From contig OZ296648.1 of the NCBI GenBank assembly GCA_965655095.1, positions 147,064,001-147,128,000 on the forward strand: a stretch of 64,000 nucleotides of DNA, in the 5' to 3' direction. The notes under the pieces are model-generated. The model made no database searches and was not told where the DNA came from. It saw nothing but the letters and a program-made list of their open reading frames with translations. The stretch's first letter is position 1. Each line of letters opens with the position of its first letter. The translations under genes and the position numbers were made by a program. This DNA is from Haplodiscus bocki. Taxonomy: Eukaryota. Below are positions 16,292 through 64,000 of this stretch, in pieces.

Positions 16292-16334
16292 CTTAAAAGG
16301 AATGCCCATGAACAAAAAGCAACGTAAGTCTTAC

Positions 16335-31690: not shown

Positions 31691-31849
31691 TCAACTGAAA
31701 AACAGTGTAAAGCTATGAAACAGTGCATACTGTTTTTTTCTTTCTCTTTTGACATTTTGAATTATTAATGCATGGATAAAAAGGTAGCAATCTTGGAAGA
31801 ACGAGCGTCTACAAAGAGAATGAAATTTGGGTGAAATTCGATTATCATC

Positions 31850-32053
31850 TGTTCATGATCTAAAATCTCAAATCATGATACTCAAAGTAGGACCAAAAAA
31901 TTGTAAAGTTAAAGGAGTTAGTTGCATTAAGTAACTATATTTAGATGACAACATTATGATAGCCGATAAAGACCAAACTCCAATTCATAAATTGGAATTA
32001 ACGATTAGTAAAAAAACGCTTCTCTTCTAATCGCTCAAACAGGCCAAATCACA
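31850..32053 (+). repeat. 5' LTR
   Basis: TG...CA termini. Roughly 80% identical (by eye) to 40577-40775 and followed immediately by a TGG primer-binding site. Confidence 0.9.
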
Positions 32054-32064
32054 TGGTGACAATG
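32054..32064 (+). promoter_or_regulatory. tRNA primer-binding site
   Basis: TGGTGAC lies directly after the LTR's terminal CA and is complementary to a tRNA CCA end. The first 7 nt fit tRNA-Trp, but the identity is uncertain. Confidence 0.65.
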
Positions 32065-32311
32065 TTGTCAACCAGAATCCACCACTGACTCTTTTCGCTC
32101 GAGCAAATTTTGGAAAACTCGACTGGCAAGTCTCGAAAAGTAACCAAAATGTTGAGGCAAAACAAAAATCTTGCTAAATTTCATCTCAATGTCAACCTGA
32201 ACTAATCGTCTCTGAACATTCTTTAACAGTTACTGCGAGTAATGAGAACTTTTCCTTGTTGATACCTTCATTTTCAAACCTGCAAATTTCAATTCATTTC
32301 CACAAACTTCA

Positions 32312-33214
32312 ATGGCCAATATTCAGCCTATCGTCAATATTCCACCTTTCAAGGGTTTGGAGAGCGAAAAATTCGATGAATTTGAACGCCAACTAAATAG
32401 TTCTATCGGTGTGCCTGGCATTGCAGTTGGAGACCGACATCTCTATCTACATTTGCATCTCAAAGGCGGCGCACTTGCCAATTACGAGTTAGCAGCCGCT
32501 ACCAGAGTCGATTTCGACCAAGCGATAGCACCACTTCGACAACGCTATGTCAACCCGCAACGACAGGAACTCAAGCGCATAGTTTATAAGTCGCGGAAAT
32601 TCAAGCCAGATGAAGAAACAGCTAGTGATTTTTTCACAGACATGCAAGGACTAGCAACCGAAAGTTTACCTGACGCAGCTGTAGTGGCAGCACAACATTG
32701 CAGAGCAGCTCTAGCAGTAGAAGAAAGCTAACGAACGTTTTCGCCGTGTAAGTGAGGCCTTCATCAATGGCCCGCCAAAAAAGCCAAAACGCTATCTCCT
32801 CACCCAGCCCGACAATAGTTCAGTTGAAAAATTGTGCGACAAAGTCTCACGGCGCAATGCTTTAGAAAAACTGTGACCCGAAGGCGACCTAGATACAACC
32901 TTCAATGAGGTATCTACCCCAAAGCTGAACTGAGTAACAACTTGTGTTGAACAACTTCGACATAACTCAATCTACGATATAAGAGCAAGTGGACATGTCG
33001 AAATAACTTGCCTCTCAGGGGCCTAATTACCATTGGAACCCAAATCACTGGAACCCTGAACGACCGCGGCGTGGAACCCATCAAGACTGGCGTGGTAAGT
33101 TCCGAGGCTGGCGAGACAAACACGCCTCTCGAAACCAAATGCTGTGTACTGCAAGCAACGTCCTTGCCGTCATTGCGACTCAATTGGACACACAATGCAG
33201 AACTGTTCGTCTAA
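32312..33214 (+). pseudogene. gag remnant (capsid plus CCHC zinc knuckle)
   Basis: IPPFKGLESEKFDEFERQL..LHLHLKGGALANY..LRQRY is a retrotransposon capsid pattern. A knuckle CRHCDSIGHTMQNC (CX2CX4HX4C) lies at ~33165-33206. Interrupted by stops and frameshifts. Confidence 0.8.
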
Positions 33215-33299
33215 ACCACCAGCTCAACATGCAGTACAGCTGCAGTACTAACAGCAGCCAAAAAAAATAAATAAGTGATTCACGCCAGCACTCTTTTAA

Positions 33300-36050
33300 T
33301 TATTTACTTTATTCTTTCTCTTCTTTTCTTCCCTGCGTCCCTCTTTCCTTTCTCAAAACTAAATTCACTGCATTTGTTACTTCACCTTTTTTCGGTAATC
33401 CAATCACAAAATCCTGAAGCCATAGGTTCTACATCGTCTGAGACCTCCAAAGTTGAAGTACCTAATGGCAATTTAGTTTCCATTCTAGAACGTGCAGAAC
33501 TTTCGTTTTCACTGGTTGGTCAAAATTTGACCGAACAATTCATATTTCGCCAAAACTGAACAGTCCTATTTTGAGCCTTCCATTTTTTGAGAAAAACAAC
33601 ATTATTGACCCCAAAACGCGCACTCTGTCGTTACTTGACTTGACTTAACAGTTGAATGAAATTTCTCCCCCAACAGGGAATGTCAAGAAAACGTACTAAA
33701 AACAAAAGTTTCTTTGAAAACAACAAAAAAATCAGTCATTCGACTTCAAAAGCCAAGAAAAGTTAAACTGTAAACTAACGAATGATGAGCTACCATTCGA
33801 AACAAACGCAATTTTTGAACGTTCAGTCGACAGGAATCACAGCTCCTAAAGGAACCCTGGTGGCAAAGGTAACCCTTTTGCAACCACAACAAGCACATTT
33901 CTTACAACCTGTTAACCCGGACTGAAAAACGGATTATCTCAATCCAAGCGTAAATGAACTGATCGCGTCGTCAAACAGTTTTGAGATGATTTCCCATCCC
34001 AGGACGGTTTCTGGTTTGCCACACCGGAAACGTGCAAAAAGCCTGAAAAGTTGAATGGAATTGCAGAACGAATTTACGACGAACTTTGTCAACCTAAGAA
34101 TAAAGAAAACCTTGATCCAACGAAAGATCCCGAAGCTCAAAGCGAATTTTTTAGCAAGTTTGACTGGGACAAATCCATTCTATCACAACTCGAAAAACCG
34201 AAATGGACAAACTTTTGATCGAATTCCATCCATGACATACTTTCACGACATCGACGGCAACAAGGATTTCAAATTCAAGCTGACTCCCGAGCACCACAAG
34301 CCGATGTACACTCAGGGGCCACCGACTCCAATCCACTTAGGAGAGGATCTCTTAGTGCAACTTGCTCTCATGCAATATTATGGTAGAGTAACAACTTTAC
34401 CGTAATCGAAATATTCAAGTCCCTCGTTCGCGCGAAGAAAAACGTCAGGCGCCCTGCGCCTTTTGAATGATCTGTGCCGAACGGATGATTTGATCCGACA
34501 CGATTATGATTCGCAAAACTTTCCCAACACCGCAACGGCTGATGCCAGTGCGCATTTAGCAGGAAATAAGCTGTTCGCCAGTGCACATTTAGCGTGAAAG
34601 AATTCAGTTCATTGCTGCGGACGTACTTGGATGCATGTAATGCAGAAGACGTGCTTCTAATACGTTGATGATTTGGGCACAGCAACCCATACTTTTTACG
34701 AGCTTTTGACTAACTTAAGAAGTATTTTCGAGTGCATGCGAAAATCAGCATTAAAACTCACAGTTCACAATTATGAGTTGGGTTTATCTGAAATTCAGTG
34801 TTTGCGAAGTTCCATAACGACCCAGGGAATGTCACCAAGCTGTGAAAAAGGTTAGAAAATCTTGAACAGTCTAAAAAGGCAAAAACACCGAAACAAAACC
34901 GTCGATTCATAGGTTTTTTCAGTATTTCAGGGCCTTTTTACCGAAACTGTTAACGATTCATTCCTTCTAACACTTTTACGGAACAACGAAGAACTAAAGT
35001 ACGCACAAGATCATCATGATGCAATACACTATCAACAGATACCTAGCGAAGGCAGTTGATTCTGCGCGTCGCTTACCAAATGCAGGCGCTCAAAATATAT
35101 TTATGGCTGATGCCACCCTCTATGCTGCAGGCTTTGTCCTAAGGATAGATTATATTGACGATCAAAGGGCCAAGCCTAAGAAGACCTCCGTGCCAGTTTC
35201 GCTCGGATCCAAAACTTTCAACCCTACTCATTTGAAACAATCCATTTATGCTAAAAAATTCTCAGCTCATTTTGCGTTTGCCTCATTCGCGCATATTCCA
35301 TAAGAGAACCAAACAAACATTTGCTTCAACTGATAACCGTAGTCTGACAAACTTTTTTCAAGCAAAAACATTTCTTGCGAGCTTAAGGTCACATGTTGAC
35401 CATGTGCTAAATTTCAATTCCATTTTGGGACACATTCCAGGGGAAGTAATTGTGGCCGCCGCCTATTTGTCCAGAAATTACATAAATCCTGACAAACTAG
35501 AATTGAATTAGGACGAGCCATAAGTAATTTTAACACGTTTGCCAGCAGTTTTGAGCCCGACACAAGTTTCCCTGATTCAGGATTTTGGTTTTACACCGAC
35601 AAGAAATTCACTATAGAGCCTCGTGCTGAACACTTGAATAATGAAAACCAGTTTTTGCTGACCACACCTATCAGCTCAGCGGTTCAAAATCAACCTAGTG
35701 GCTTCTTAGATTTGTCAAACGAAACGTTTGAAGGTTCTACGGAACGAGAATTGGATAATCTTGCTGAATTTCCAAACATCAAACATCGGAACTTTTTTCT
35801 ACCGCAGTAGAAACTTTTCCAGCTTCTAGTTTTACTAGCGCTGGCTTTCATGCTCCACATTTCGTCTAGTCGTTCCGCGACCCCCAGTGGTGCAAGGGTT
35901 TCCCTAGACTTCGGGTTTTTGTGCAAATTTAGCACGTCTTTGGGAATGAAGCGTCGCACACATTCTAACATACCGCGTCGTCATTCTCCGGCTGAAGTTT
36001 TTCAACCTGGTCAATTCAATTATAGCCTCACTTAAAATTTCCGCAAAAGA
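33300..36050 (+). pseudogene. pol remnant: RT and RNase H; part of RT and the whole integrase deleted
   Basis: PPTPIHLGEDLLVQLALMQYYG..SKYSSP (gypsy RT N-terminus), YVDD at 34661-34672, RNase H ADATLYAAGFVL and TDNRSLT..HIPG..AAAYLSR. No HHCC or DDE integrase motifs follow. Confidence 0.8.
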
Positions 36051-36279
36051 AGATTGTCCCCCAATTGATTGATTGCTGGAAGTACCACATCTAAAACTAA
36101 TACTGTGACAATCTCAAACAAGACCCCGATGACTGACTCTCATATTCCTCGTCTGCCTGTCGTAATCAGTCAGCCGATAACGTCATGTCATGCTACCATT
36201 TTACTGAGTTCATATCATTCTCAGTTTGTCAAAGATATCTCAATTACTTGAAGCTTTTCCTTAATCAATTAATTACCTC

Positions 36280-38600
36280 GTTGATTCATTGTAATTTTGC
36301 CTTTTTGCTCGGCTATATCGGTTGATATCCGGTATGTGGCGTCGTTCAGCTTGATATCGACCTAATTAACCTGTGAAGTCATTTCCATTATGACTACCAA
36401 CATCAGGCTAAATATTTTTCACCAATCGATGTATTGTTTGCCTAATCTCTTTTCCGTTTGCAAATTGATCAATTCAACAACTGCTTGAACGTCCGTTTGC
36501 CTTAAACATCTAACCGCTAAAATCATTTCGCCAATTTGAAACACCTTTTTGAAAGTACTCGCAATGATTTCACGCGTGCTCGTTACGTTTATGCTAGTGC
36601 AACCTTCACAAGAGGTTGCACCGATAACGAACCCCACGGAGGGAATTTTGTTCAACTATCAGCAAACAATTTTGCTGGCAAAAAATCGTTAACATCCAAT
36701 TCGTTTAACCTTTCCCATTTTTCGATAACTCAGTTTCGCAATACATCACTGTTATCGCACTGAAACATGACGATCTTTGGAACTACCCGAACTATGGATG
36801 CAACCTTACTGATTCCAACGACACAAAAATGAACTCCAGTAACCGTTGGATCTACGGGGACACCCGCATGGAGCACATTCGTGCACATGACTTGCGCCAC
36901 CTCAAATTGGAACTAGCCAACACTTAATACGTCCAAAAGTGGACGATACGAAACGTCGCCTCGCTCTCATTGCCGCAGGCCTCTTGTACTCTGCTGCCGC
37001 AGGACTTGGCCTTGGCTCATCCTGCTTTCTCAAGGTTTTTTTTGTGGCTGCAACCAGTTAGCAAAAGAAAATAAACGCGCCATTAAGGGTGCAATTCAAC
37101 ACATGCAGAGAATGCATAGTAAATGGATTCATGTAAAAGAAATTACAAACGACAAGTTCCAAGTGGTTGGACCAGAGTTGAAAGAACTCCGACGCATCCA
37201 GGATCAGATAGCCTCCATTCACCGGAAAAACGCAACAAAAAAGATAACTCAGCTTCAAATCTTCAAGCAATGTGTAAATTTAATCAGAAATTGCGAGCAG
37301 GAAATTTACGTTCTCGGAGAAATGAACTATAATGTTGCGGTTTTAAATTCAATTTTGTCTTATCTTTATACTCAACACAAAATTTTCCGTGCCTCTCTTT
37401 ACACCTTCCGTACCAACACTTTCACAGCACTTGCGCCTATTATTGATGTTTTTCTGCCCGTTTCCGTTATTCCAAATACACTTTGCACAGCATCCTTCGT
37501 GAACTTGTGCTACAACAAAGTGAAGTAGGTTCCCGCCTTAACTTAGCTAATCCAATCGGGAATCTTTTGACATATAACGGAAGAAAACTCTTGCGCCGGG
37601 TAGTTTCGTCAGAATTTGGGCTTGTTTTAACTCTGGCAGTTCCTTTCTTTTCACAAGCAACAGTACTACAATTTTATCGCACCAATAAAATTCCAATGCC
37701 TGACAGACAACGCTAGGGCTTCCGTTTGGCATATCGAAACTGATTACTTAACAGTCCATTTACAAGGCCAAGAGTCAACTCTGCTGACAGCCCAAGATTT
37801 GAGTCAGTGTATCGGCTCGACTACTTATCATTTAATTACTCTGGTTTTGCAAAGAAAAGAATCAAAACTCATGCCTCTTAATTTTGTACTTCGAAGACTC
37901 GCTGGTTGCTCTGCAGTCGTGTGATATCAAGTCTTTTCACCTTCCATTGACAGAAAAAGGTAAGGTTGGCCGAGGCAACTGGCTTATTACGACCGCATCA
38001 AAAAAGTACATCATTTCACAAACTGACACAGACCCAAACACGAGCAACAACAAAACCCTGCAGACCGGGACGTAAAAAGTGTATCGTGTAGAAGCGACCT
38101 CCAAGGACACAACATCCATCTACGATCTGACCTCGCAATGTGTGCAACCCAAACGACGCGTGTTCTGGACATTGTATTACCAGCGCCTCTGATCTATCTT
38201 TTCCAAACGTCCGCCACTTCACGATCTACCATAGTAGTCAGCCATGAATCCGCAATACTAAATTTTTTGGTAAAAGTGCAAATGGAATTCGCTCAACTTC
38301 CGGAATTCAACCGAAGGAACCTGGAGATCGATGAAATTGCTATCCCTATCACAAGCCGCATGGAAACCATTACCCGCAGCTTTTCTCTCGACTGGATGCA
38401 ACAGTTCGTTTCTGGTTTTGAACGAAAAACACTACGACCAAACCCTTGCGCTTCTTTGCAGGCGGGAACTTTTGGAATCATTCTTCCTGCAAACACCCCC
38501 AAGTATTTGAAAGACACAGCTGGAAGTGACCTCACTCATTTGAACTGAAATATATTTAAAAAAAAACGTTTCACACAATGAATTAATCAGCAAACATAAA
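36280..38600 (+). pseudogene. env-like class I fusion glycoprotein remnant
   Basis: Basic site KRR (36951) is followed by the hydrophobic Gly/Ala-rich LALIAAGLLYSAAAGLGLGSSC, then heptad-like segments (ORF 37103-37528), LVLTLAVPF..LQFYR..IPMP and a Cys-spaced region. Frameshifted; no intact TM anchor was seen. Confidence 0.7.
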
Positions 38601-40576
38601 ATTTTGAAAGTGTTTTTTTCACAAAAGCAGTCAGTTCGAACAGCTCAATCAATCTACAAAACTGAGTGCTCGGAATTCAACGGACTCACTTTAACTGCAA
38701 ACTTAGTGTAACTATCTATGCAAGGTACCTTTCAAAAAAGACATTTTTGTTCATTCAGCGCCTGTTTTTCAGTTGCCCCTCCTGTCATAGTGGCGCAGTA
38801 ACGTTCCTCCTATCAGCGCCAACACTCCATTAAACACGAGGCCGAAAAAAGGCCCCATTGCCACTGGCCATCTCCCGGTCTCCCTCTCATCACTTATTTC
38901 CTTTTCCTCTAGAAAGCAGCCTGCTGCTGTCCTATCTTTTTCCACCGTTACTTGGCCATCAACTTATAACACAGCTTTCCCCTGACAACATGCCACGACA
39001 AGTGTCTGATTTTAGCCGGTCGCTCCTCCAGGACGAAGCATTTTAGTGTCAGCGGTGAAGCATCGCTGAAGCTGTTCAAGCTAATTATGCAGAAATGATC
39101 GGTGTCGTCCTCATTTTGTTTGGTCAAGCAAAAACAACTTGATCTGAAAAACTCGAACAACCCGTGAAGTTGAGGACACGACACTACTCCTTCTCCCTAA
39201 TCTTGTCGCCAGAAGGCATTTGAAAAAAGGACGAGAAAAAAATAAACGCAAAAAAAACTATTTCTCATGATATTATGGGGAACATTAAAACCGAAATCCT
39301 GAAGTTTTGAGAAAAATTCACACAAAAACTTTAAGCTCCTCGGACGCGCTAATGTATTTGCCGTGTTATGAGACTAATCAATTGACCGACAAAGATTTAT
39401 GCCTCAACTGAAAAAATCAAAACTTCTACCTGAGACTTTTTCACCCCAAAAATCATAATTTGGTTTAGCACAAAAGTTATGCAAACTCAAACCTTGTCGC
39501 CTTTCCAGCCCTTACCACTATGCAATAATAGTTATCCCCCGTGCTATGGACCCGTCAATTCAAAACAACATGTTTCTTTTCAGCTTATTATGCATAAATT
39601 CCTCTTGTTTTCAGTCTTCATCTTAGAAGCCTGCAAGCCTCAGTTTCTCCACAATCCTGGCCAAAATATTTATTTCCAACCCCACAAACCTATGTTCAGC
39701 CAAACTTACATGCCATCCACTGTGTCATGAGCTAAAAAAAGAACCCATCAAAAATTTCTGATTTGATTTTTCAGAATCGTTCTAGAGACTATAAACCTGG
39801 CACTTCATTCACAAACTCGTGAATCGTCCACCCTCTCCTCACTAGATGGCGCACTGCTGTCTCCGAGCGTCTGCAGACCATCCAGACCTTCCTCCCTTCG
39901 AGCAACACTGCATCATCAGGATAAGCTGGTGTCGGGTCCTCATATATAGAACCCGCGTAGTCCTCTCCACTGATGGCCAGCAGACTCAGATCCACGAGAA
40001 GCTAACTGTCCACACTCTGCACGCACCCGTAAAACTGGGCCTCAATGGCCAGCCTCCCCTTGCATCTACGGGATAGAACCTCTCAGTGACCATGGAGTCT
40101 ACAAATGCTGCATTCTTCCTGGGTGTCTGAAGATTCACCAGCTGCGGCTAAAACTCTTCCCTCAATGACGCTCTTTTTGCCACTTCTTATACACAAAACG
40201 CTGTGATGTATTCATCGTGGAGGCTTTTGGGTACCGGCTGCTGACTCACTTACTTGCACGTTCGGAGAAAAATACTTTATAAAGGGCTCCCGAAAGACTT
40301 GGACTTCCAGTGAGGCCTGTGAACACTCAGCTGCCCTCACTCTCCCTCATTGGCAGGCCCCTGGGACCGTCCGTCAGGCATTCCAACAACTGCGCCACAG
40401 TCGCCTTAAGCGTTGGCCTCTCCTACCTCATGCATCATGATTTGACTCATATTTCGATCTCAAAACATACTACGAACAATATCCTGCTTCATGCAATCAT
40501 CAGGTGCACATTTATTTTCCTTTTCAGCAACACAATCACGCAGGAACATTTACTTTTCTACATTGCACGCAGGTAG

Positions 40577-40775
40577 CGTCATGATCTAAAATCATGATAC
40601 GCAAAGTAATACCAAAATTTCGTTCAGTTAGAGCTGCTATTTATATTAAGTGACTATATTTAGCTGATAACAACATTATGATAACCGATAAAGATTAAAC
40701 TCGATTTCATAAATTGGAATTAACGAGTACTAATGAAACGCCTCCTTTCTAACCGCTCGAACAGGCCATATCACA
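40577..40775 (+). repeat. 3' LTR
   Basis: Direct repeat of 31850-32053 (CG instead of TG at the start, ends ATCACA), followed by TSD TCATC. Confidence 0.9.
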
Positions 40776-42342
40776 TCATCCTTGGGGTGGATTATAACTT
40801 TCCACTTGAGCTCATCAGATCAAGATAACGCATTCATTTAGTCGATCAAAAAGTGCGGAAAATGCAAAATTGACGAAAAAAGCCCAAAATCGCTACATCA
40901 AACTTACTACTTTCTCGTGTGATTCTGATGAAACAGAAAAAACTTTAATTTATTCAAAAGTCTCAGAGAACTGTGTTCAAACTACTTTTTGAGGCTACGA
41001 GCGGAACGAACGACGCGACTGAAGCGATGAAGTGTCTATTTCTCCAGTATGACGAAAGTTGTTTTTCTTTCGCAGACTTCGTGGAATTTCCAGCAAGATC
41101 TTCTTTGATTATGTATATCTCCGAGCGTATTTGAGCTGCCGGCAAATTTTTTCAATAGGCGCCTCCGCAAGACTTACAGCTGAAATTCGGGAAAAAAGAA
41201 TTTGAGCCAACGTGATTTTTACAGGAAAATAATAATGTCTCGTTATGTGACATAAAAATATGGCTATTGTTAAGATGAGAAAGTACTTCCTGCAGTTGAA
41301 TAGGAGTAAACTGTTGCCTGCATTGCGATTATTGTCGTGTTGATGTTGTCTTTGCGTCATTGGCTGATGGGTTTTGCACCATCTGAACGGTCAACAACTT
41401 TGTGACAATGGTTTTCCAGGTGTGACTTGAGTTTTCCGAAAGTGACTCATCGATCAGGAGGCTCTCTTCGAAAGCCTTTGTCCTGCACTTCTTCAGTTTC
41501 CCAAAGTCTCCAAAGCAGTGTTCCTGGTGAATCAGGAAGCTTGCCGCACGTTGCTCTGCATTTGAACATAGGGAAATTTTTTCCGTTGACTTGCTCGTGG
41601 GGAGTATTCAGGGGTCTGGATGTAAGGAAAAATAGTTATTCATTTGGGATCCGCCCCAGTTGGCAGTTTCTTGAAAAGCTTGCAGGCAAATGAAAGCATT
41701 CACTTATCGGTCGGTAACTGCGCGTGTTGCTCGAAGCCCACTAAAAGTCTTGGCGCCGATTTTTTCTAGAGTTTCAAAAAAACGTGAATTTTAGCTCAGT
41801 TGTTCACTTTATTGAAATTACTATTTTACACATCAAATATCCCGCATAACACTACCAATAGATGTCATAAAAATAGGCATGATTGCCACTTCCCCTGACG
41901 AGATCAGCAGTCAATGAAGCCCTTCGAAAAATGTCAACCTCAGCTTCGTACCTAACAAATTGTCTCATACTGAATTCACTGAAAAATCAATCATGAAATT
42001 TAGGAAATATAACATCGTTGTTCATTTTTCAGAAGCATGTTCAACAAATTAGAACCTGATAGAACCCGGTCTTTTTCGAAATTTTTGGACAGAGATGGAA
42101 ATAGTTTTTACGCTGACATCACAGAATGTAAGTTTTGAAAAGCAAAAAAATAGCATAAGCCGGTTCCGATGCACAAATTTCATTCACCAAATAAATTTTA
42201 ATTACTTTCACCAAAATTTAAAAAACTTATCTCTAATGAACAACCAATCCCGGAACGCTTGACAAGGCTCTCAAAATATCGAAGGGGGAAAAATTTTACC
42301 ACACGCAAACGCCAAAAATGGGACGTTTTTGCGGAAAAAAAA

Positions 42343-44659: not shown

Positions 44660-45565
44660 TCAATCCTTGAAACCCATCAGACTTTTCAAGGCATCGAAAG
44701 TCAGCAGCGTAACTCCGAACTGAGGCCCTGACCTGAATGCCCGCAAGACGGCACCCTTCCAAAAAGCCTGAAACCCTTCTTCTCTCATCAGTTTGATGGT
44801 GCAATCAATGACACCTTTGTACGCAGTTTTTCCTTCCGATTCCTTGACTTGTAGCCTCGTTTTAATGACGTCCGCAGGTGTGCAAGACACAGCCGCAGGA
44901 ACTCCCCCAATTATACCTGCGCAGAACAGCGAAAAAAGCGAGTTTTTGCCATTCTCATTCTGCAGAGCTGTCTTTGAGTGTGCATAAACTGGGAAAAATA
45001 TGGCAGAGAAAGGAATGTCGCGCAAAAGACAAGCCCGCGCTCCTTTGTATAGATTAACAAAGCCTAAGTCTTTGATCACTGAAAACACTGATAATCTCTG
45101 CCCACGCATTTCTCCCGCTTTCTGGAGTCGGATTTTCACAATTTCCAAGGGGTTCGTGAACAAAACTTGTGAAGCACCGGCACAACCCCCTGCGATGAGT
45201 TCTCCCCAGATTGGACAATAACCGTAATGTCTTTGGAAAGTGTCTCGTACCATATCATTAGTTGTCAACTTGATGGCTTTCTCGGGGGCAACGCCAAAAA
45301 TCTGTGGTAACAATCCTCGATAGAGTCCCAAAGCTCCCTCGTTGCGAACGACGTACATGAAAGTTTGTCTGAATGTGTGATAAGTTCGTTGTTCAAACTT
45401 TACCCCTCGTTCATCCTGGATACGAGTTTTGCACAAATCGATAGGATAGACAGCGGTTGCGCCACAAGCACCCGCTACAGAACCCAAACTGAACAGAATC
45501 ATACCTTGCTGGGCAATCGCAGATCCCTTTTCTTTAACAGGAGAGTGAATATTTGTAGTAGTCAT
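44660..45565 (-). CDS. SLC25A12: Mitochondrial carrier, aspartate/glutamate carrier (aralar/citrin, SLC25A12/13-like), carrier domain only, intronless
   Basis: 301-aa intact ORF with three PX[DE]XX[KR]X[RK] motifs ([30 protein letters not shown]). AGC-type segments are [57 protein letters not shown] and [10 protein letters not shown]. Confidence 0.93.
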
Positions 45566-51700: not shown

Positions 51701-54700
51701 TATCTAGCGATTAATGCGAAACAGAGTTTGACTTGGAGTGGGATTCAAATTGTGGCTTACCACTTCAGCTGGAGTTGTAATGTCCCACCTACTTGATTGC
51801 CCAAATTGAATCTCTCCTGAGTTTTAGAAGGAACCCGTAACTGTGCGTGACACCAATAACAAACGTCTCTTCTGTCCTGTGAGCTAAAACCTTGGCTAGA
51901 TTATAGAGGTCCTCCGCGGTGTCTCTTGATGAACTGCTTGAAACGGTACCACTGTTTTGAAGCATTCGATGCCACCAGCGAGAAAGATGTTGACAGTGTA
52001 TTTTTTTTGGGTCGCGGGAAATCTCAGAAGTTCAAGTGCTCGTTTCGGGTAGAAAGGGAACGTTTTGAACGCCACTGTCTACTAGAACTAGTTACCTTCC
52101 CGATACATCGGGATGGTTATTTCTCTTTCTGTTGCACTTGCATTTCAGAAATTAGGGTAACTTTATTAGAAGTTTTTTGAATGAGTGATATCTCCTTGGC
52201 TACGTCAACACCTAATAGCAAACATGTAGCAAAAAGAGATTCAGTATGTAAATCAGTTTAGGTTCACCACGGTTACCCTTCATGCCAAATTCATCTGATA
52301 AGATTCATTCAATATGTTTATTGAAAAGGCAAAAACCATTAGGTGTCCCACAAGGAGAAAGAAAATGGAGAAAATGGAGAAAGTGCTTGGACTTACACTA
52401 CCCCTTGTTGTACAACAATGTTGTAGGAAGGCATCGTATTTGCTTTACTACAGCCAGTTTACGGGACCCGGAACTGAGAAAGCTTAAGTTCTGTGGCAAT
52501 TTGTTTCATACTTTGACATGCTAAACTGAATGCAACGTTTGTAGTGGTTTTGCGTTCAACTACGAAGGTCGAAGTAGAAGCTGTGTGCTTTCTTAAGCAT
52601 ACAGGGACAAGAGAAGTTTTGAGCAAAATAGACGGCACCAAAAACCTGTTTCACGGTGCCTGCGTTTAAAACGAGGATATATACAAACGAAATACAATAA
52701 AATAACCATTGATCCCAGATAATGCTATCAAAAACATGAAAAATGAATGCTCAATAGACAACTGAGATTGAATTCTTTTTGAAAGAGGCGGGTGCAGTTG
52801 AGTTGTTGTTGAAATTATCAGAGGTGCTTTTTGTGGCATTTTTCGTGGGTTTTTAATTTTAGGAATGTCAAGTAAATTCTCGCGTACAGCTTTCAGTATA
52901 GTTTTTCCAGCTGCTGATTTAGTAGAGAACTGGGCACACTATTGACCTCTGGGTTTTCATTCCAGAGTTGTTTTAATTGATCTGGTAGTTTTACGTTTTT
53001 ATATATTGCCAGGAGTTGTTCGCTTGTACTTTGGTCCGATCTAGTTTCGAAATATGGACCCACTTAGTGCCTACCTCATTCCACACTGAAAACGGAATTT
53101 CGACAAATAATATTGACTCAAACACAATCAAATGCTTGAGGCTGTATTTGATTGAAATTAAAAAGAAACTGTTGCTGCGGACGTTATGAGTTAAACCTCA
53201 AACCTTAAGTTTTCGACATTTTCCACAGCTCGAAGTGAAATTTGTTGTCTGTCGTTTATCTCTAAGGCTTCCACGCCATTTTTGAAGGAAAATACTGCTG
53301 AACAAGATCAATGTCCTGTTTCTGTTGCAATCATGTTTTACCAATTTTGATATCTTGAGTATCCAATTCATCTCGACAGATCTTTTTCCATTAGAATAAC
53401 TGCTTCCATGGTATCTCCCAATAACGCTATTTAAGGCAGCTCTACTCTCCATTTAATTGCCAAGTCCGTTTCTAGTGGAGGCTTAGGAACTGCTATGGAA
53501 CGAAAAACTGTAAATACACTTTGTCTTGATGCTAAAAGACTTGCAATTCGCATGACTAATCCTTGTTCAACAGTACTGACATCTCGTGATTATCTGTATT
53601 CTTAATATGATATGATCTCATCCACCGAAATCGCTAACGATACTCTGTCTGTTGCACGATTTTGTTCCGTTGCGACATCTTCTATGATAATAAGGAGTGA
53701 CTGTATAAGAACAAGCAACAACTGCAATTTCTTATTGAGAATCGGCTGAGTTGTAATAATCATGTTTCCTCGTTAGGTGTTTATTGCGCCGCAATAACTC
53801 TTTTTTTTTCGAATAGATCAAGTTACGCAAAGAAAGTGTCATAAGTGAATTTTATTTGCTGGCCCGGAAAAAGTAATTGATAACAATTTATTGGGACATA
53901 ATTGTTTGCATGGAACGTTTTAAATTTTTTTTCCATCGTTTACCATTTACTTGTTCAAAAATCGAGCAAATCATTTCGAACGTTTTTTTAAAGTAAGGTC
54001 AGATATAATTATGGAAAAATTGTCAAAAAATTCGTTTTGTAGTGTAAACACATCTTTTGTTAAGGTTTTTTTAAATCCAACTAGTTTGACTTTTTTTCTG
54101 CCTTCTTTTGTAATTTCTCGTGACACGAACCAAGGGCTCGTTCGTGGCAACAGGATCCATTTCCATGTGCGATTCCTGATCCAAATGATCAGACTGAAGC
54201 AAGTGCCATTATTGCAAGAGGCGCTAACTTTCGGCTGCAAATGGAACTCGTGCGCAAGGTTTGTTTCGAATTTTGAGGAAGACCAAACACAATTACAAAC
54301 AGCGCCAAACACTTGCTCTGCAAGTGTAACTTCTTTTTCAAGTTGGTGTAAAAGCCAATCAACATCAAATGTTGAATCGCTTTTCTGAAATTTTTTCGAG
54401 TAGTCTAAAACGGATCACCAGATATCAGAAGCCCAGAGCGTTCCAAATTCCCTAAGTAGGCGCTTTTTTCGGCATGGTCGTCAAGATCAAACTTTCGAAA
54501 GGGGACCAGAAAGTCAAATTCGATTATTTGGTCAGCCGGAAAAATAGTCGTGACGTGATAAAAAAGATAGCATTTTCGAGTATTTCGGCGGAGTCCTGGT
54601 CAGCAATGATGTCACTATTCAGTCTGGATCATTTTTGTCCAAGTAGGACAAAAACTACATGAAAAAACGTCGCGTTTGAAGTGAAAAAACTACCGTTTGA

Positions 54701-57700
54701 TGTCAGGGAAATATCTACAGCGGAATAGCAAATTTGTAACCTTTTTTCAGTGTCATGAGTTGAAATGCGTCCAACGGAGGAGACAACGAGGTGTTAGCTT
54801 TTCACAGCGTTTGGTCTGCGGTTCTTTATTTAATGCGTGTAATAAAGATTTCGAGTTTTTCGGAGCGTTAAGAAAGTGTGCTACACAAAGTTTGACGCTG
54901 GAACTGAAGTCAACTGTTGTCCTGGAGCAGAGTATGTGGGCGAACATTGTTTTTCCCGTGTCTTGGTTGTCAGCGGGAGGCTGGAAGATGAGACTGCAAC
55001 AGACGTTAGGGACAAACCCTGGGAAGTCTTGTTCATACTGGTGAAGCGACTGGTTATTTATAACTTTTGGCACCGATTGTGATGGAAACTGTTGTGATAT
55101 ATTCTTCAAACAACAACAATAGTTCCAGTTTCTGGCCAGAGTTACACCTAAAAATGTTTTTTGTCAAGACTTGCTTCTTAAAACAGTATAGGTTTGTGGT
55201 TACCTTGTGTAATTGATAGTTTGTATTCAACTTTGTGAGCAAACGGAAAACAGTAAGGTGTAACAACAAGAGCCGCACTAAAAGAATCGGATGTTGACAA
55301 AGACAATATTATTTTAAATTAAAATGCAGACAACCTAAAACGGAAACAGCTCGGACGATGATGTAGAAGCAGTAAAAAAAACTTGAAATTTTCAGTGGCA
55401 AATTTTTCAATAAATCATTTGTCCAATGTGCACGAAAGAACGGCAATTAGATAGGCGGAAATGGAAGTTCACTGTGTCTGAAGAGGTCTCAAACGTGATT
55501 ATATTGAAGCAATCGGAACCGGTGGGTTATGGTTTATTTAGAAATTTGATGACCGTTGCATTGTTGTAGAGGAGCGAAAGGAGCACGAGTATGCGGCAGG
55601 CCTCTCGTTGTATGAAACAGAAGGCGCGGAATAGTTTGAGCCAAACAAATTGAACAGATTTCGTCTGGTTAACAGTGCCGTAAAGCGACTATGCAAACGT
55701 TTATCCCTGATAGCAGTCTTCCAGAAGATGGCAGATTTGAGGTTAGCTAAATAACACCAAAATTTGTGGCCTATAATTCCAACCGTTGATGAAAATCAAC
55801 AAATAATCCAACTTTAAACAGCTTCCCCCAAGAAAATCAAAACAAGTGAAAATGCAGAAAAGTTTTTACGACAAAATGAAGAGCAAGAAGCTCACTGAGT
55901 TTACAGTAAAAAATTGAACTATTGATCAAGAAATTGCCAATCAACTTGTAGCTAGTCCTACTCGCTGGAAAAATTAGACAATTATAAAATACCATAGGGT
56001 CTTCAATAAACAAAAGTTGACGCCATTGCCTCCCTTGCTGTGAACGACAGTTACAAAGTATATTGGGACTGGTGAATTTTTTTCAAAACGATCTTTTCGA
56101 AGTATGGGCGAGAAAAGAAATTAAAGTCTATTGGACAATGCCTACAACTCTGATGATTCACCCAGTCCTTTGTGGTCACAAGGTTTTTACTCTGTTGGCG
56201 GGGCCAGCCTCAGTTGCCAGCTTTCGAGGTAAGGTGCTTACGGATAAGCGTAAGCAACAGCAAGTGTTCAATTCTTAATCCACTGAGCTGCGAAGAGAGA
56301 ATAAACTGTTAGCGTGTAAAAACTGTGCATGTTCAGAAGTCTGTGGTTATGTATTAGACAATGCGCGCGCAAAGACAGAGCTCTCAATTCAAGTGGAATG
56401 CAATGGTATTGGTGGTAAGCAACAATGCTGTCTGAAGAAATGAAGGAAAGATTTCCCTCTTAGGAGAGCTGCGAATATTCCCAGAAGACTGGAAAAATTT
56501 AAGCGTCTGCAAAAAAAGGTGAGCAAAACAGAAACTTTTGTGTTTTTGGTATTTTGGAAATTGTATAGTTCTCACAAATCCCTAAGTTCCTTAATCATCT
56601 ATGTAAAAAAATTACAAGGAAGATTAATTTTTGTTCATCCAGATGCAGCGCTAGCGTTCTTCAGAGAAATACACGAGGAAACAGAATTATCCATATGTTC
56701 AAAATTTCATCATGAAATCCTATTTTTTCATGGGATGTTTTACCTGGAGTATAATTTTTCAGTATGAACAAGTTAGTTGCAGGGCAAAAGAAAGAAAGCG
56801 AATCAAGCGCACAATACGAGAAAGAGGATTCTAATTTCCGACAAAAAACGAAAACAATGCAAAAAAGGAGAATATTGGTAGCCCCTTGTCAACCGAGAGT
56901 TGATTTTTAGTTCCCAACGAAAAGAACACAACATAGGTGTCTTTTTTGCCATACGTGAAAGCCAACAGAAGGATTATCAAACGTCAAACGTTGGTGGTAG
57001 TTTTCTGAATTTCGTTGGAATAAAACTTGAGAAAAGTGCTGAAAAACTCAAACGAACACTCTGTTGACGGTCTTATCGGATCACACTGCGAAAACGAGTA
57101 GCACAGCTTCCACAGGAAGAAGAACGAGCCTTTCTACTAACAACTGGAAGCTAACGTTCACAAATATGTGTTTTTGAATTATTTCTTTTTCTGCATTGGT
57201 TGCATTTTTTGGTTAGTCTTTAGAATTGTAATCGCTGTCATTTCAGTGACGAAAGATTTAAAAAAGAAAGGTGAGCTAAAATTACTTCTCGTTGTTAAAA
57301 GTTCAATTTCATCAGAAATTCATCAGTGGGTTCAGCTATTGGAAGTTTTTGTCCCCTCATGGATTGCACTGCCGAAATTTTCAAAAGAATCAACCAGTCG
57401 AGCAAGGTCCTGGTTGCTCGTTCTGAATTGCGGACAAGACACGCCTTTATATCATTACATCCCAAGGAGTTTGGGAGAATGGCGTCGTTCAAATATTGCA
57501 ATTGTCTGAAAATCCGTCGGCAGAAAATCAAAGTTAGTGGGGTTAAGAAAATTCGCCGCTAATACCAATTAGTCGAACCCGTCAGAAGACTGCAGATTTA
57601 CAGAACTCATGGCAATACAGCCAGTTTACGTGGTACAGGATCAAAAACTGGAACTTCAACAAAAACTTAGTAAAAGCTTGAGAAAGTGATACAATAACTA

Positions 57701-59904
57701 GGGCTCTTAAATGTTCTTTATCTCCAACAAAACCCAACAAGGAAAGAGAATTGTCTAATGACAGAAAAAAATGCAAGCCAGAGAAGAATTTCGTCCATTT
57801 TATAAAACGAAAACCTCCGATATTTTAAAAACTCAGAAATCGTGTGATTAAATTGAAAAAAGCGTTATGTTGAAAACCGGTTCCAGGTTTTTGATAGGGA
57901 ACAACTATTTTTTTGAAACGTATTTCCTTATGTTTCTGGCTAGAGGAGAGATAAAAATCTGGCCATGGTGTGCCGAATTCAACGAAAGTTAAAACAGGCA
58001 CCTAAATTGTCTGGTTATCCAATCACGGAAAAGCTCAGCCAGACAATAGTCTGGGGCATGTGGGGCCGCCGCTCCCATTAGCATGCTCCACTCAAGTGAA
58101 ATGGGAGAGGTCTCAAAATCTTCAATACTATGTCTACCTGTTGCCAGTCTTTAAATATATAGTCTAACCCCGGGGTAATATAGGAAAGATGTTGTCACCA
58201 AAGAACGAGGTCACGATGAACTGCACAACTGTATCATGAGAGTTGGTTTCTCCAAAAAAAGCAGCTCATCGCGGAAAAAAACTGTAAAGCTTCAAAATTA
58301 GGAAGCGCTTCTGGGGCCGAGCTTTGCCATCCAAAACCTGAGGGCCAAGGCTTCATTAACGTGGGTTCCATTTCTTTCCGGTGACCGGGTCGACAATGGC
58401 CATTCAGGCGTGTGAGGGTAGACATAGACGTCGTCAAAGATAAAAATTTGTTTCTTCTCAGTATTTAATTGTAACTGTGTGTGAGGGATCAAAGAAAAGG
58501 TTGACATTATTTTGTATCCTCACTGCGCCAAAGATTTGCAACTGAGTTCTGATGGCGAGACGACACATAACAAATTATCCAAGCAGGATTAGGCAAAAAA
58601 ATTGGAATTTCACAGATACTGTAATTCATCTGACTAGAAGGGAGTGAAAAGAAGTGTGAAATTTTTGTTTGTGGTACTTGGCAAACGTTGAGTTCAAAAG
58701 TGGAACGGAGTACGCAAGAGCAGCGTTTCAAAACAAAATCAGAGAAAATATATGTTTTATCGGAGCTGACAAGCTCACGAAATGTCACGTTATAAGACTG
58801 TGAAGATTAATGTGCGTCGTTTTTCAGTGACGATAGGCTATTGTTAAAAATGCTTTAATATTCGTTGGTTACTTTTTGACTCGGTAATGTAGTTTTAACT
58901 TCTGCTTCAATTAAGCGTGCCGGAAATGCTATCGAATTGTTTACCATTTTTTGACGCTGGAAACGTTGCTTAAACAGCATTAGCCTTAATTCTATCAAAA
59001 TGTTTGATTGTATTGTTATGAAATCTTTCGTAGGTCATATTCGATGAGTGGGAAGCCTGTCTTAGTTATTTAGGTTTGCAGTTTCATTGTCATTTAAAAA
59101 CAAATGTGGAATAGGCGTCAGTTTGGGTCACGACTGACAATAAAATAATCAATCACATTGCCAAATTGCGGCCGTCAATGCACTGGTAAGAATTTAAACA
59201 ACTAAGACGATCTTTTGCTGGCAGTGTCAGATTTCGGTGTATCACGTTTGATTGGGTTTTCAAAGAGAAGGATTTTGCAATGACCACTCAGAAGCTAATT
59301 TGCGAACACTGCACATATGGAATATTCCTTTCTTCGTTTCTCTGTTATTATGATATTCATCAAGATTTAACAAAATTGCAATCAATCGATATCTGGGCCA
59401 TTATGGTACAAAAGTCTCACACGAATTGCGCTGTGTCCAGATTTAAGGATTCTATCAATCAATACTTTATTCCAATTGGGCTCATCAAAATCACACCCTC
59501 TTTGAGTTAATCAAATTTCGGTTATTCCGTGTTCTAACAGATGACTTTTCCTTCATCATAGGCTTTTCTGCAAATATCTAGAAGTAAGTTTATCATTTTA
59601 GTGCTGTTTTGTGATTAAAATACATATCCATTACTGCCTTTGTGGCGAAAAATTGCTTTCTGAGCGCACTTGACTAGGAAAACACATTGCTTCGTCGAAT
59701 CCTAAGCAAGTTGGAGAACAATAAGAAAACCGTTGAGTTAAACCCGCTGCCATTGCTAAATCAGAAGCTACCCGAGGTCCAAAACATATACTAAGGTTGT
59801 CAAACAGATCATATTCTAAACTTTCAATATTTGGTGGTAACTAAACACTGTCTGTAACGTTTGAAGTTCGATGAAAGTGAAAAAGGAACGAAAATCAGAA
59901 GAAA

Positions 59905-62900
59905 ATGGGGATTACGACCTGTTTGGACGACCTGGATAACGCGTTTCCAAAAATTAGTTCCCAGTTGTTGGCCTTAAATTAGGAGCTGGTGCTATTGAAT
60001 TTGGTAGCTTTTGACGTGTAGTAAAAGCATTATTTCGTGAAAAAAATCTCTATATGTGCTCCGGGGATGGAGTTGTAGCTTGTTGCTGACGATAAAAAAC
60101 TTAACCCGTTTTCGTTAAGTCTTGTCGGGACGCGACGGAACTCCGCGATGATAGTCATATTGATCAAAGCGAAATCGGGGCGACGCAGAAGGTGTTGATT
60201 GTGCGCTGCCACTTTCAATTGGGATTCGAGATTGTCTATTTGATGTATTTATGTTACCCGTTTCTGTTCTGGTCAATGGTAAAAATCTGTTTGTGTTTGA
60301 ATTCGGAGAAACACTGGGCTCACGACTTTCAAAAAGTACCTGGATTGGAGACGCTAGCTGAACAGGCCCCGGAAAATGCTGATTTGCAACCGGATGCGGC
60401 GGAGTTTGCTGAGGATCGGGTTGCGCTGAGACGCATTGAGGTTCATCTGGCACTGCATTTTGTGGTTCGAGGCGCACTGCATCAGTAGATGCGGCTAGAA
60501 CAAGTTTTCTCGTCAGAACTTGCTTTGCATTGATAGTGTCATTCTTTTGACCCTGTCTTAGTAAATTATTGAAAACGTTGTCAAATATTTCATGCTTGAC
60601 CCTATACTCTCCTAAACGAGGGCCTGGTTGAAAATTTTTGTGAGCAAATGGATGCATTCAACTTGATAGATAGGTGTAATAGGTCAGAGACGTATTTGAT
60701 GAAAACATGGCGTGTACGGGGTTTCTGTTTTCTAATCCAATACTTGGACTTTCACAGGATTTTCTCCATTTTGTACAAAGAAAGCCAATTCATAGTAAAA
60801 TTTGCTGCAAAAAGAGTTTGTGTAAGTAGGAATGGATACAACAAAAACAAAAATGATGTGGCATTAAAAATTTTGCAGCTGCGTTTTGTCATTTTTGGTA
60901 TGGTGTTTGTAATAGGCATTCTTTAGGCTCAATTCAGTGTGTGTAAATTTTCCCAGTAATGAATCTTGCAATGCAACCGAATAGTTAGAGCTAGTGCATT
61001 GAGTTCTTCTTGAGCTAATTCATGGCTTCTTATGCGTGAATCAAGTAGTTCAGTCGGTTGACGTCCGTGGAGCGAAGACTTAGGAGTGCGTCCAATTAAT
61101 GAATGAATTGACTTGTTATATATAAATGTTGCTGATTCAACATAACCATATCAAGTTGTCCAGTTTTTGTCTGTATTCAGCAACTCCAACTGTTTCAGGT
61201 AGCTTCAATGAATTGTATTTGGTTCGCTTTTTCGGACCTCTTGATAACTCATGAAATATTTTGGCAACAGAGCTGGTGTCATGGTCAGATAGGGTTTTAG
61301 TAGGATGGTAAATGTGTGAAAAAATATGGAAACTAAACCTCTGGCAAGTGTACTTGCATGTGCAGATGTTACTGGAACTGCAAACAGATATTTTGAAAAG
61401 ACATCTATCCCTGTCAACGCATATTTCTATATTGCTGATTGGAAAGAACCAACCAAGTCAGTATGCACTATGTCACTCCAAAAGAATTGTTCCGATGAAA
61501 GTGGTTGAACTGGCGGGTGCAACAGTTTCGGGGTGATTTTTTTCAGAGCCGAGCATGAAAAACAGTATTTGATATAGTAAGTCAAAGTTGGTGGAAATCC
61601 AGGAAAAAAGAATCGCTTATGAAGCTCCTTCACTGTTCTAACAATAACGAGATGTCCTCTTGTGGGAGAATTATGCTTTTTGCAAATGACTTGTTCTCGG
61701 AAAATTTGAGGGACACACACTTGTGAGTGTGATTTTTTCCAGCAGAATCAATGCACAGTGGCACTAAAATCCCTTCGTTGATTTTTACGCTCAGTAAATG
61801 TTTACTTTTCTTTTTCAAAGGAAGCATAGATTAGATCATAATTACATCTGTCTTCAACCCAATCTATTGGTTTTCGAAATACTGGACCTTTTTGCTGCTC
61901 TCCATGAAAAAACGATTTGTTTCGCATTTGGTAGTGAAAAATGAAGGAAGTTACATGGATCCTTTTGCCGAATCGAACTCCATTCTGGATCTGGCTTAGT
62001 CGCCTGAGCTTCCGAAGTTGTGTCCCTTGAAGCATTAGTTAAAAATTCAATCAGGTAACCACTCAAACTTTGTAAAGCATTGTTGGACTTGTTATTACGG
62101 GTTCTTCTCAAACAACAATGGGTTCTTCTGAAACATCACAAGCGTCATAGACTTCATGTTTAATTGGTCAGGCTCTATTGCCCCCAGGGATGACTCAAGA
62201 GTGATCGACTACATGTCTATTCCGACTTTTCTTATTGGAAAGGTTTCATGAAGTTTTTTTCCAAACGTTTCGTTAGGTCTGTTGGCTTTTCGGGTAGAAA
62301 ATTTGGCGCGGCGTTTGCTCTACCGGGGAATGTGTGCGTGAATTACGCTGTATGTATTAACTTTATCTAAAGAACTCCACTATGATTGGTAAAGTGAGTT
62401 TGATTGGAAAAAAATTGTGAGTTTTTGTTATCAACTAGGAAAGGTACCACCTTTTCAACTCCACTAACAAACTGAGAGAACAATTTCAATGCAAAACAAA
62501 GTGCGAGAAACTTTTTACAATCTAAAGCTATTTCCAACTGAGTTGCAGTAGATAACTCTCATTCGTTGGGGACAAGTGCATAGGCTCCTTTTCTGCCTTT
62601 TTTTGTCCTAAGTAGTCTTGAATTGAAATGCAAACTGCTTACTATACGTACTTGCGTCACCCAAAATATTGGAAAGTTATTTGAGTTTGGCTACACAAAA
62701 TTTAGTTTCTTTTGCTGTGAGCAAATGATTTTGTGTTGTCAAAACTCTGTGAATGCTCATCTTCTAGAAAAAAATCTACATCTATTCTAGGTAGATTATA
62801 CCATGACATCGACTTTTGTGCTAAGTTGGGCAGCAAAGAAATACAAAGATCTTTTAATTAACCCACTAGTCTCTTCACGTGTTTCATAGTAAATGGGAGT

Positions 62901-64000
62901 TTGATTGAGAACAAAAATGTTTCAATGTTTACAACCTCTGGTGTCAATCCTTCCAGTATTATCAAGTTGCCGAGAAAAAAATTCGATGTCATTCTAAGTT
63001 GAAATTTGTGGGATGTCAACTTTAATGCTGTTTTCCTCATCAACCAATCAAAGATTTGACTAAGCGTGGGGACCGCTTGTTCAAATGTTTCCACTCCACA
63101 TTGGATCTGGTCCATGAATCTTGTACATTTGATTGCTGGTGGACAGGAGTGTAGATAGGATCTGACAAAAGATCTAAATCCTGTGATCGTTTTGTTTAAT
63201 TCTTGCGCCTTTGTCGTGTAGGCGTAAACCCGTGCAACAAACTTGAACAAAAGCAATTGCAGTCATAATGGGTCTCTTTTTTGTGCACATTGACATACCT
63301 GAGAACAATGCAACTTGGTAAACAGATTCTATGCCGCAAAATGATGAACGGAGTCGGTCATATTTGAAATTGGAACGTTGTTGTTACTGTAATCAATTCG
63401 AAGGAGGAGATTAACTCGTCTAAGGCCGACTAAATTTCACAATAATCCTGATTGCCTTCGTTGAGCGAAAATAGGACAATTGATTTTGATTTCCGGTAGA
63501 AGTAACACAATTCCGTAAATTTTCATTAGAGCAAGTCCATCTGAGATTTCATCTCTCAAGTGAATTGGGCTTGGCGGACTTTGAAAGTAAAATGATATTT
63601 AATGCGCTGGACTTACTTTGATTTTCATTTCTGTGTTACAACCAACATCAAATCTATGTTTTCCAAAACTATCAGTAATTTCGACTAATGTTTCTTGCAT
63701 GGGTTCAATCGGTTCTGCTCTTAGTACAGATTTTGACGAAAAAAATTGATGTGCAATTGTCTCAGTCTTCCAAATTTTTTGAGGTTCTAGAATATCCCTT
63801 GTTTGTAATTGTGTGATGTTGTCATAATATCTTCCCTGTCGTGTTTCCAGGATTCGGACACGTTTCCGGTGTTGGAAACCAGATTATATTGTAGTCCGGT
63901 GGTGCATGCTTTGCTTCACTTTTGCCAAGTTTTTTGCATGTGTTCAATTATCGATTTTTGCGGTTACAAAAAATTCCACTTTTTGTTTTACCAATGGATA
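59905..64000 (-). mobile_element. Second degenerate Ty3/gypsy element (RT, RNase H, integrase, tail; no env), truncated by the window edge
   Basis: WFPTPETC (~63860-63880); RT FKFVARVYAY..FMDQ..LKLTSHKF..FLG (62858-63256); integrase HNSPTRGH..YIKYCFSC, HTDLVG and TGIDVFSKYLFAVP; Pro/Gln-rich tail at 60115-60657. The end near 59905-59960 weakly resembles the 3' end of the first element's LTR. Confidence 0.85.

What the first reader, a model, noticed from the sequence alone, without database searches (positions are those of the whole stretch)
31850..40775. Envelope-bearing Ty3/gypsy provirus: an invertebrate endogenous retrovirus-like element
Seen: a complete provirus outline (LTRs, PBS, TCATC TSD). 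Downstream of pol is a ~2.3-kb reading-frame remnant with a basic site (TKRR), a Gly/Ala-rich hydrophobic peptide, heptad-like helices and a Cys-spaced region. Known: this is the layout of class I fusion proteins, and some gypsy lineages have captured env genes (e.g. the baculovirus-F-related errantivirus env). Inference: this gypsy lineage acquired an env and was once potentially infectious. The related element at the window's right end lacks env, which suggests gain or loss within one clade.
Basis: partly seen in the sequence, partly recalled or inferred. Interest (0 to 1): 0.72.

Follow-up and report, generated by a model that had tools for sequence, protein, structure and literature searches.

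The report
Dead envelope retrotransposon with antisense JmjC
This is a broken copy of a virus-like jumping gene whose envelope gene belongs to a family predicted to fold like paramyxovirus fusion proteins, a kind already known from many animals; less expected, it also carries, on the opposite strand, the remains of a likely JmjC-type enzyme gene of a kind that many related young elements keep and that may help them escape host silencing.

Summary
The provirus outline is real: LTRs at 31850-32053 and 40577-40775 (83% identical), TCATC target duplication, tRNA-Leu primer site. The copy is old and dead. Integrase, part of RT and the env membrane anchor are deleted, and all frames are broken. The env remnant belongs to a large family in this genome; intact members have a signal peptide, an RxxR site, a fusion peptide and an anchor, and one model matches paramyxo/pneumovirus and baculovirus F. 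Such elements are published as widespread errantiviruses (PMC13524379). Related antisense ORFs lie beside 68 of 148 listed env matches and are under purifying selection, with a conserved H-x-D/E...H triad. My searches found no paper on JmjC cargo in LTR elements; this scan noted it earlier on other DNA. Its function (likely counter-silencing) is inferred, not shown.

The parts
31845..31849 (+). 5' target-site duplication TCATC
   Evidence: sister copies have their own 5-bp duplications
31850..32053 (+). 5' LTR (TG...CA)
   Evidence: 83% identical to the 3' LTR
32054..32061 (+). primer-binding site TGGTGACA, 8 bases complementary to host tRNA-Leu(CAG)
32285..33200 (+). gag remnant (capsid part matched 32285-32680; end approximate)
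   Evidence: tblastn E=4e-16 and 5e-14 with gag of young elements
33500..35507 (+). pol remnant: protease, RT, RNase H; frameshifted, with two short deletions; ends at the integrase deletion
35507..35508 (.). junction of a deletion of about 1.96 kb that removed the integrase
   Evidence: sister copies carry integrase here; a DNA contig crosses the junction without differences
35508..36530 (.). pol-env spacer; no coding signal in the 600 bases tested
   Evidence: pN/pS 0.83-1.06 in all six frames
36540..38406 (+). F-type env remnant: signal-peptide-like start, basic site 36948-36959, fusion peptide about 36960-37020, helical and Cys-rich parts; broken, anchor deleted at 38406-38423
   Evidence: family fold
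39771..40450 (-). antisense JmjC-like ORF remnant; ATG at 40450, 127 bases inside the 3' LTR edge; first metal-site motif decayed at 39954-39937; C-terminal part deleted at 39757-39771
40577..40775 (+). 3' LTR (CG...CA); only a short GCAGGTAG before it, no clear polypurine tract
40776..40780 (+). 3' target-site duplication TCATC
52542..54685 (-). env remnant of the second (right-end) element
55713..56542 (+). antisense ORF remnant (type B, JmjC-like motif) of the second element
   Evidence: tblastn E=2e-39
59269..63989 (-). pol remnant of the second element (RT, RNase H, integrase, C-terminal macrodomain-like part); gag and protease lie beyond the window in L021

Best explanation
This is an old, internally deleted provirus of a Ty3/gypsy family that carries an env gene predicted to encode an F-type class I fusion protein and, on the opposite strand next to the 3' LTR, the remnant of a likely JmjC-type oxygenase gene. 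Shown: outline, deletions, env family membership, the antisense ORF and selection on its relatives. Inferred life cycle of the ancestor: transcription from the 5' LTR, reverse transcription primed by tRNA-Leu, integration with a 5-bp duplication; Env cut at the basic site would expose the fusion peptide and let particles pass between cells, as in Drosophila errantiviruses. Inferred role of the cargo: an antisense transcript from the 3' LTR would make an Fe(II)/2-oxoglutarate oxygenase; intact relatives end in a basic tail that suggests a nuclear or nucleic-acid-bound site. I think removal of repressive methyl marks from the element's chromatin is the most likely job (about 45%), ahead of hydroxylation of RNA-processing or translation factors (about 30%) and a non-catalytic or other role (about 25%). 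This copy can do none of this.
For: LTRs, TSD, PBS. Pol order PR-RT-RH-IN and Ty3 RT as best solved match for a young relative (E=1e-25). Env: 151 matches from 1,297 candidates (150 scored) in the genome; of 9 intact ORFs inspected, all 9 have a fusion-peptide-like and a C-terminal hydrophobic stretch, 7 of 9 a strict RxK/RR site; homologues P0026 and P0082 pass the Baculo_F cut-off (2 of 12 tested); model of one natural intact homologue, mean pLDDT 81, best PDB matches all paramyxo/pneumovirus F (E 1e-6; Z 9.3, rmsd 5.0, 289 aligned), viral library E 2e-21 to 2e-17 for chu-like glycoproteins and baculovirus F. Antisense ORF: two collinear pieces of a sister copy match the type-A alignment (hhalign E=3e-5 and 9e-5); 23 of 28 type-A proteins match Pfam JmjC at E<=0.05, 3 of 10 tested pass the cut-off; triad H/D/H in 23, 25, 23 of 28; synonymous sites saturated while dN is 0.25-0.6 between type-A subfamilies, dN/dS 0.24-0.53 in unsaturated pairs; in the focal family pN/pS 0.55 in the antisense frame against 0.94-0.97 in four other frames and 0.69 in the mirror frame; ATG at the same place in 5 of 5 copies checked.
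Against: The window's own ORF piece did not reach E<0.05 with the type-A profile; its assignment passes through sister copies (54-59% identity). No JmjC structure was modelled, and profile searches of solved structures found nothing. Type B has no Pfam JmjC match and only a motif-level match to type A (probability 1%, E=0.049). The ORFs have no histone-reader domain, and the host gene with the nearest motif layout is a small JmjC-only protein, matched weakly (probability 10%, E=0.003), which fits a hydroxylase as well. The pN/pS test reuses one reference copy, so pairs are not independent, and the env control gave only 0.81. Three of 11 young env elements with an LTR pair have no JmjC-like hit, so the cargo is dispensable. 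TM-scores to solved F proteins are low (0.15-0.28 by query length).
Confidence: 0.7

Rival explanations
1. The element is an ordinary errantivirus-like relic and the antisense ORF is a JmjC-fold protein or RNA hydroxylase (JMJD4/JMJD6-like, names recalled) that tunes splicing, translation termination or RNA fate, not chromatin.
For: No reader domain; small JmjC-only size of about 270-370 aa; motif layout closest to a host JmjC-only gene.
Against: That match is weak (probability 10%); the basic tail fits nuclear chromatin work equally; no substrate data.
Confidence: 0.3
2. The antisense frames are not JmjC enzymes but unrelated accessory proteins with a chance cupin-like motif, or passively carried host fragments.
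For: Pfam scores mostly lie below the cut-off; no PDB match; type B unmatched.
Against: 23 of 28 type-A proteins hit the same family over most of its length; metal and co-substrate positions are among the conserved columns; purifying selection; fixed antisense orientation in 68 of 68 env-linked cases.
Confidence: 0.12
3. One reading: this one lineage recently captured env from a virus, and its env-less neighbour shows gain or loss within a clade.
For: An abundant related clade has no env hit in the 10 kb after RT (0 of 12 rows), so env presence does vary among related elements.
Against: The named neighbour has env; env occurs on several RT branches; the env family is broad; PMC13524379 reports ancient pol-env co-divergence. 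My tree has no root, so gain and loss cannot be ordered.
Confidence: 0.1

Closest known systems
F-type 'ancient errantiviruses' (env-carrying Ty3/gypsy; Chary and Hayashi, PMC13524379)
   Same: gag-pol-env order, LTRs, tRNA-Leu primer among those reported, env with signal peptide, furin site, fusion peptide, anchor and F-like fold.
   Different: Elements here are 13-16 kb with 3-5 kb between pol and env or after env, holding an antisense ORF; the paper's first filter allowed 1 kb between pol and env and 10 kb in all (with a manual extension of 3-5 kb for some groups), and its main text and 7 supplements have no occurrence of 'JmjC'. This copy is broken.
Bdelloid TelKA LTR elements with paramyxovirus-like env and enzymatic ORF3s (PMC5408684)
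   Same: F-like env in a gypsy element; captured enzyme genes after pol.
   Different: Their enzymes are GDSL esterases and DEDDy exonucleases; 'JmjC' does not occur in the text.
Plant Retand elements with antisense TRP28 ORFs (PMC11963269) and 3'-LTR antisense genes of HTLV
   Same: Conserved antisense ORF between pol and the 3' LTR.
   Different: No env in Retand; TRP28 is a putative DNA-binding domain, not an oxygenase.
Transposon-borne anti-silencing factors: VANC of VANDAL (PMC10398659) and fungal TET/JBP transposons (PMC12730594)
   Same: A mobile element carrying a factor thought to counter host silencing; TET/JBP is also a 2OG oxygenase.
   Different: DNA transposons of plants and fungi, other protein families. 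Seen as search listings with abstract starts only.

Membership tests
Ty3/gypsy LTR retrotransposon | Paired LTRs with TG...CA ends and a 4-6 bp target duplication | tested here: met
   (3' LTR starts CG in this copy; TG in sisters)
Ty3/gypsy LTR retrotransposon | pol order PR-RT-RH-IN | tested here: met
   met in sister copies; integrase deleted in the window copy
Ty3/gypsy LTR retrotransposon | RT closest to Ty3/gypsy | tested here: met
   young relative: Ty3 RT best solved match, E=1e-25, foamy-virus RT close behind at 5e-24; no GyDB profile test
Ty3/gypsy LTR retrotransposon | tRNA primer site and polypurine tract | tested here: inconclusive
   8-base tRNA-Leu PBS present; no clear PPT
F-type errantivirus (PMC13524379) | env after pol with signal peptide, furin site, fusion peptide, membrane anchor | tested here: met
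   family level; anchor deleted in the window copy, present in sisters L026 and L036
F-type errantivirus (PMC13524379) | F-like ectodomain fold | tested here: met
   model of a natural homologue (43-69% to other intact members, about 24-37% to the window pieces):
F-type errantivirus (PMC13524379) | Intact gag, pol and env in the copy | tested here: not met
   window copy and all family copies seen are broken; other families in the genome have long open frames and 96-99.8% LTR identity
F-type errantivirus (PMC13524379) | Place in the published pol tree (ancient versus insect group; RNase H mini-domain) | not tested
   reference sequences were not fetched; one search holds only this genome's elements
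F-type errantivirus (PMC13524379) | Cell-to-cell infectivity | not testable with these tools
   inference only
JmjC Fe(II)/2OG oxygenase | Match to the JmjC profile | tested here: met
   type A: 23 of 28 at E<=0.05, 3 of 10 over cut-off; focal family by homology to type A; type B has no match
JmjC Fe(II)/2OG oxygenase | H-x-D/E...H triad with Thr and Lys co-substrate positions | tested here: met
   type A 23/25/23 of 28, type B 36/37/38 of 40; decayed in the window copy; residue roles recalled, not from a call
JmjC Fe(II)/2OG oxygenase | Double-stranded beta-helix fold | not tested
   both fold jobs went to env; the Atlas gave no answer
JmjC histone demethylase (KDM) | Activity on methylated histones; reader domains | not testable with these tools
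   no reader domain found by Pfam

The most novel reading that the evidence does not exclude
Envelope-bearing gypsy elements of this genome are complex retrovirus-like elements that carry their own JmjC oxygenase on the antisense strand, in at least three divergent versions and two positions, kept by selection to erase host silencing marks: a retroelement-encoded chromatin eraser.
Probability: 0.4. Interest if true: 0.8.

Novelty: new variant of a known kind. Interest (0 to 1): 0.5.

Why it matters
The env itself adds one more host to a published, widespread class. The cargo matters more. If env-bearing gypsy elements carry a selected JmjC enzyme, they hold an accessory gene aimed at host chemistry, as complex retroviruses do, and the question of how such elements stay active under heterochromatin silencing becomes testable with one small natural protein. 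It also shows that surveys which cap the pol-env gap can miss these long elements.

Tried and rejected
Nested one-off insertion of env: rejected, 11 other family copies match the region. Assembly artefact for the deletions: rejected. Env-less right-end element: rejected. First env model from 9 sequences failed (pLDDT 33) and was not used. Pfam found nothing on the window's env pieces or on intact env ORFs of this genome; sequence and profile searches of PDB gave only E>=0.02. JmjC-like ORFs: no solved-structure match; no longer fused form among the 7,993 candidates scored, weak evidence; no close host donor among 6 host JmjC matches; type A not found in metagenome contigs, type B in 5 short contigs of one data set, one beside env. 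No RNA holder listed. Joints that skip about 9 kb have only 21-22 bases on one side and do not show an empty site. No 3' or 5' LTR could be assigned to the right-end element. The RT tree is the quick version, unrooted, with long branches for the broken copies. Acoel terms were searched in PMC13524379 on an untested guess about the host and gave nothing; this says nothing, as the host was not identified.
Full report
Observation. The window holds a provirus at 31850-40775. A 5-bp duplication TCATC flanks it; the LTRs are about 200 bp and share 157 of 190 aligned columns. The 8 bases after the 5' LTR pair with the 3' end of a host tRNA-Leu(CAG). Four sister copies inspected have their own 5-bp flanks, two exact and two with a mismatch, and LTR pairs of 81-90% identity, so the whole family is old. 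No copy of this family with long intact frames was seen among 71 DNA matches (40 of 114 candidates scored).

State of this copy. Compared with sisters it lacks about 1.96 kb at 35507/35508, which holds the integrase in them, two short pieces of pol, about 235 bp at 38406-38423 and about 720 bp at 39757-39771. Contigs of two DNA runs from one study cross these points with 0-2 differences. A 94% identical duplicate of 40484-42003 and beyond lies about 280 kb away and starts inside the element, so the insertion predates that duplication.

Env. The longest open piece (36917-37525) finds 151 matches among 150 scored of 1,297 candidates in the genome, many in frames of 740-850 aa. Nine such frames were read: all have a Gly/Ala-rich hydrophobic peptide and a C-terminal hydrophobic stretch, 7 of 9 a strict RxK/RR site before the peptide, and an N-terminal hydrophobic leader is visible. 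A profile of them finds 2,184 proteins at E<=0.001 in the representative library; 2 of 12 tested pass the Pfam cut-off for baculovirus F. A model of one natural homologue with 107 aligned sequences has mean pLDDT 81. All listed PDB matches are paramyxo- or pneumovirus F proteins (best E=1e-6, TM-scores low; VIA Z 9.3, rmsd 5.0, 289 residues). In the viral library the best are chu-like glycoproteins, an abalone herpesvirus protein and baculovirus F (E 2e-21 to 2e-17). The window's env covers profile positions 22-626 of 715 in at least six frame segments and has no anchor; sisters L026 and L036 have one.

The right-end element. It has pol at 63989-59269, an antisense ORF remnant at 55713-56542 and env at about 54685-52542, collinear with young elements of its clade. 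An env-less relative does exist elsewhere: an abundant clade with no env hit in 12 of 12 rows. The quick RT tree (35 rows, unrooted) puts env-bearing elements on several branches and cannot order gain and loss.

The antisense ORF. Window 39771-40570 is conserved at 72-77% in four full sisters. On the minus strand an ATG lies at the same place in 5 of 5 copies checked, 127 bases inside the 3' LTR edge in the window. The remnant is seen in 8 of 12 family copies examined: the window, L025, L049, L051, L054, L058, L065 and L192; it was not found in L052, L055, L059, L060. Substitutions favour this frame (pN/pS 0.55; third-position excess 463 against 340 and 352), while a spacer control shows no frame preference; the pairs share one reference and an env control was weaker (0.81), so this is supporting, not decisive. 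Two collinear pieces of the L025 copy match an alignment of type-A ORFs at E=3e-5 and 9e-5, with the F-H-x-D, R-G-x-K and P-x-D-T-V...H motifs in register. In the window the first motif is decayed and the second His region is deleted.

The wider cargo. Type-A ORFs (152 matches) match Pfam JmjC in 23 of 28 aligned proteins. Type-B ORFs (120 matches from 1,261 candidates) share the motif layout and an H-x-E...H triad but have no profile match to JmjC. From the listed positions, 68 of 148 env matches have a type-A or type-B match within 5 kb, all 68 on the opposite strand and upstream of env, against about 0.15 by chance (I used 148 of 150 listed env rows, the top 41 of 150 type-A rows and 107 of 120 type-B rows, dropping duplicates and weak fragments; all lists are partial). 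Of 13 elements examined, 11 showed an LTR pair (95.7-99.8% identical, 12.8-16 kb); 8 of the 11 enclose gag, pol, an antisense ORF and env, and 3 have env without it. Between subfamilies synonymous sites are saturated while proteins keep about 50-70% identity in type A; unsaturated pairs give dN/dS 0.24-0.53. Public homologues were few and unnamed (23 and 36), with no sign of a wide host range.

How it likely works. Replication as for Ty3/gypsy follows from established knowledge. Env-mediated passage between cells is inferred from the F-type layout and from Drosophila errantiviruses. Antisense expression from the 3' LTR is inferred from position only; no RNA run was listed. An Fe/2OG oxygenase is inferred from profile and triad; the roles of these residues and the names JMJD4, JMJD6 and KDM are recalled. 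Counter-silencing is my preferred function, at about 45%.

Comparison with print. PMC13524379 (read: abstract, first parts of sections 5 and 6, sections 7 and 14, term passages, term search of 7 supplements) describes F-type env in Ty3/gypsy elements across animals; figures were not seen. PMC5408684, PMC6431247 and PMC11963269 were read as term passages: extra and antisense ORFs are known, 'JmjC' does not occur in them. Five searches listed no paper on a JmjC gene carried by an LTR element; the library lacks most subscription papers and repeat databases. Earlier notes of this scan, read after my own reading was set, report a JmjC gene in a fungal element, a demethylase-like gene in an antisense slot in another genome, and a mention in this genome; they are unchecked AI notes.

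Verdict. The finding as written is a decayed member of a known kind, with one wrong supporting claim. The antisense JmjC-like cargo makes it a new variant worth following, best studied in the younger families. Interest 0.5.

Noticed in passing
L159-L166, L168-L170, L173, L174 (e.g. L161:4144-7260, minus): A very abundant, young gypsy clade (LTRs 99.7-100% in 2 of 2 checked) related to the focal family has no env hit but several antisense frames between pol and the 3' LTR, possibly exons of one gene, with a CxxC...H-like motif; no Pfam match.
   Followed up: partly
window 59852-59409 (minus); L136 pol residues 1756-1859: Macrodomain-like part at the end of pol in the right-end element's clade (Pfam Macro E=0.002, below cut-off).
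   Followed up: partly
window 40484-42003+ and L061:5470-7001: Segmental duplication at 94% identity about 280 kb upstream, starting inside the element's 3' end.
   Followed up: partly
L026:9066-7432: A sister copy has two 5' LTR-PBS units in tandem, 94% identical.
   Followed up: no
L033:1775-6150: An env frame of 739 aa between two 400-bp repeats of 99% identity with no gag or pol between them, next to a DNA-polymerase-like and endonuclease-VII-like frame: perhaps a non-autonomous env-only element.
   Followed up: no
window 44660-45574 (minus): Single-frame mitochondrial carrier gene, three repeats, Pfam E=4e-66.
   Followed up: no
window 12467-17395 (minus): Three long frames (847, 377, 326 aa) without a Pfam match.
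   Followed up: no
window 1963-3416 and 4785-6567: Degenerate repeats spaced about 180 bp, and an inverted pair about 1.5 kb apart at 77%.
   Followed up: no
G000 C1, from about 161.09 Mb: Long tandem array with a period of about 424 bp that holds a tRNA-Leu-type 3' end; 836 pattern matches genome-wide.
   Followed up: no
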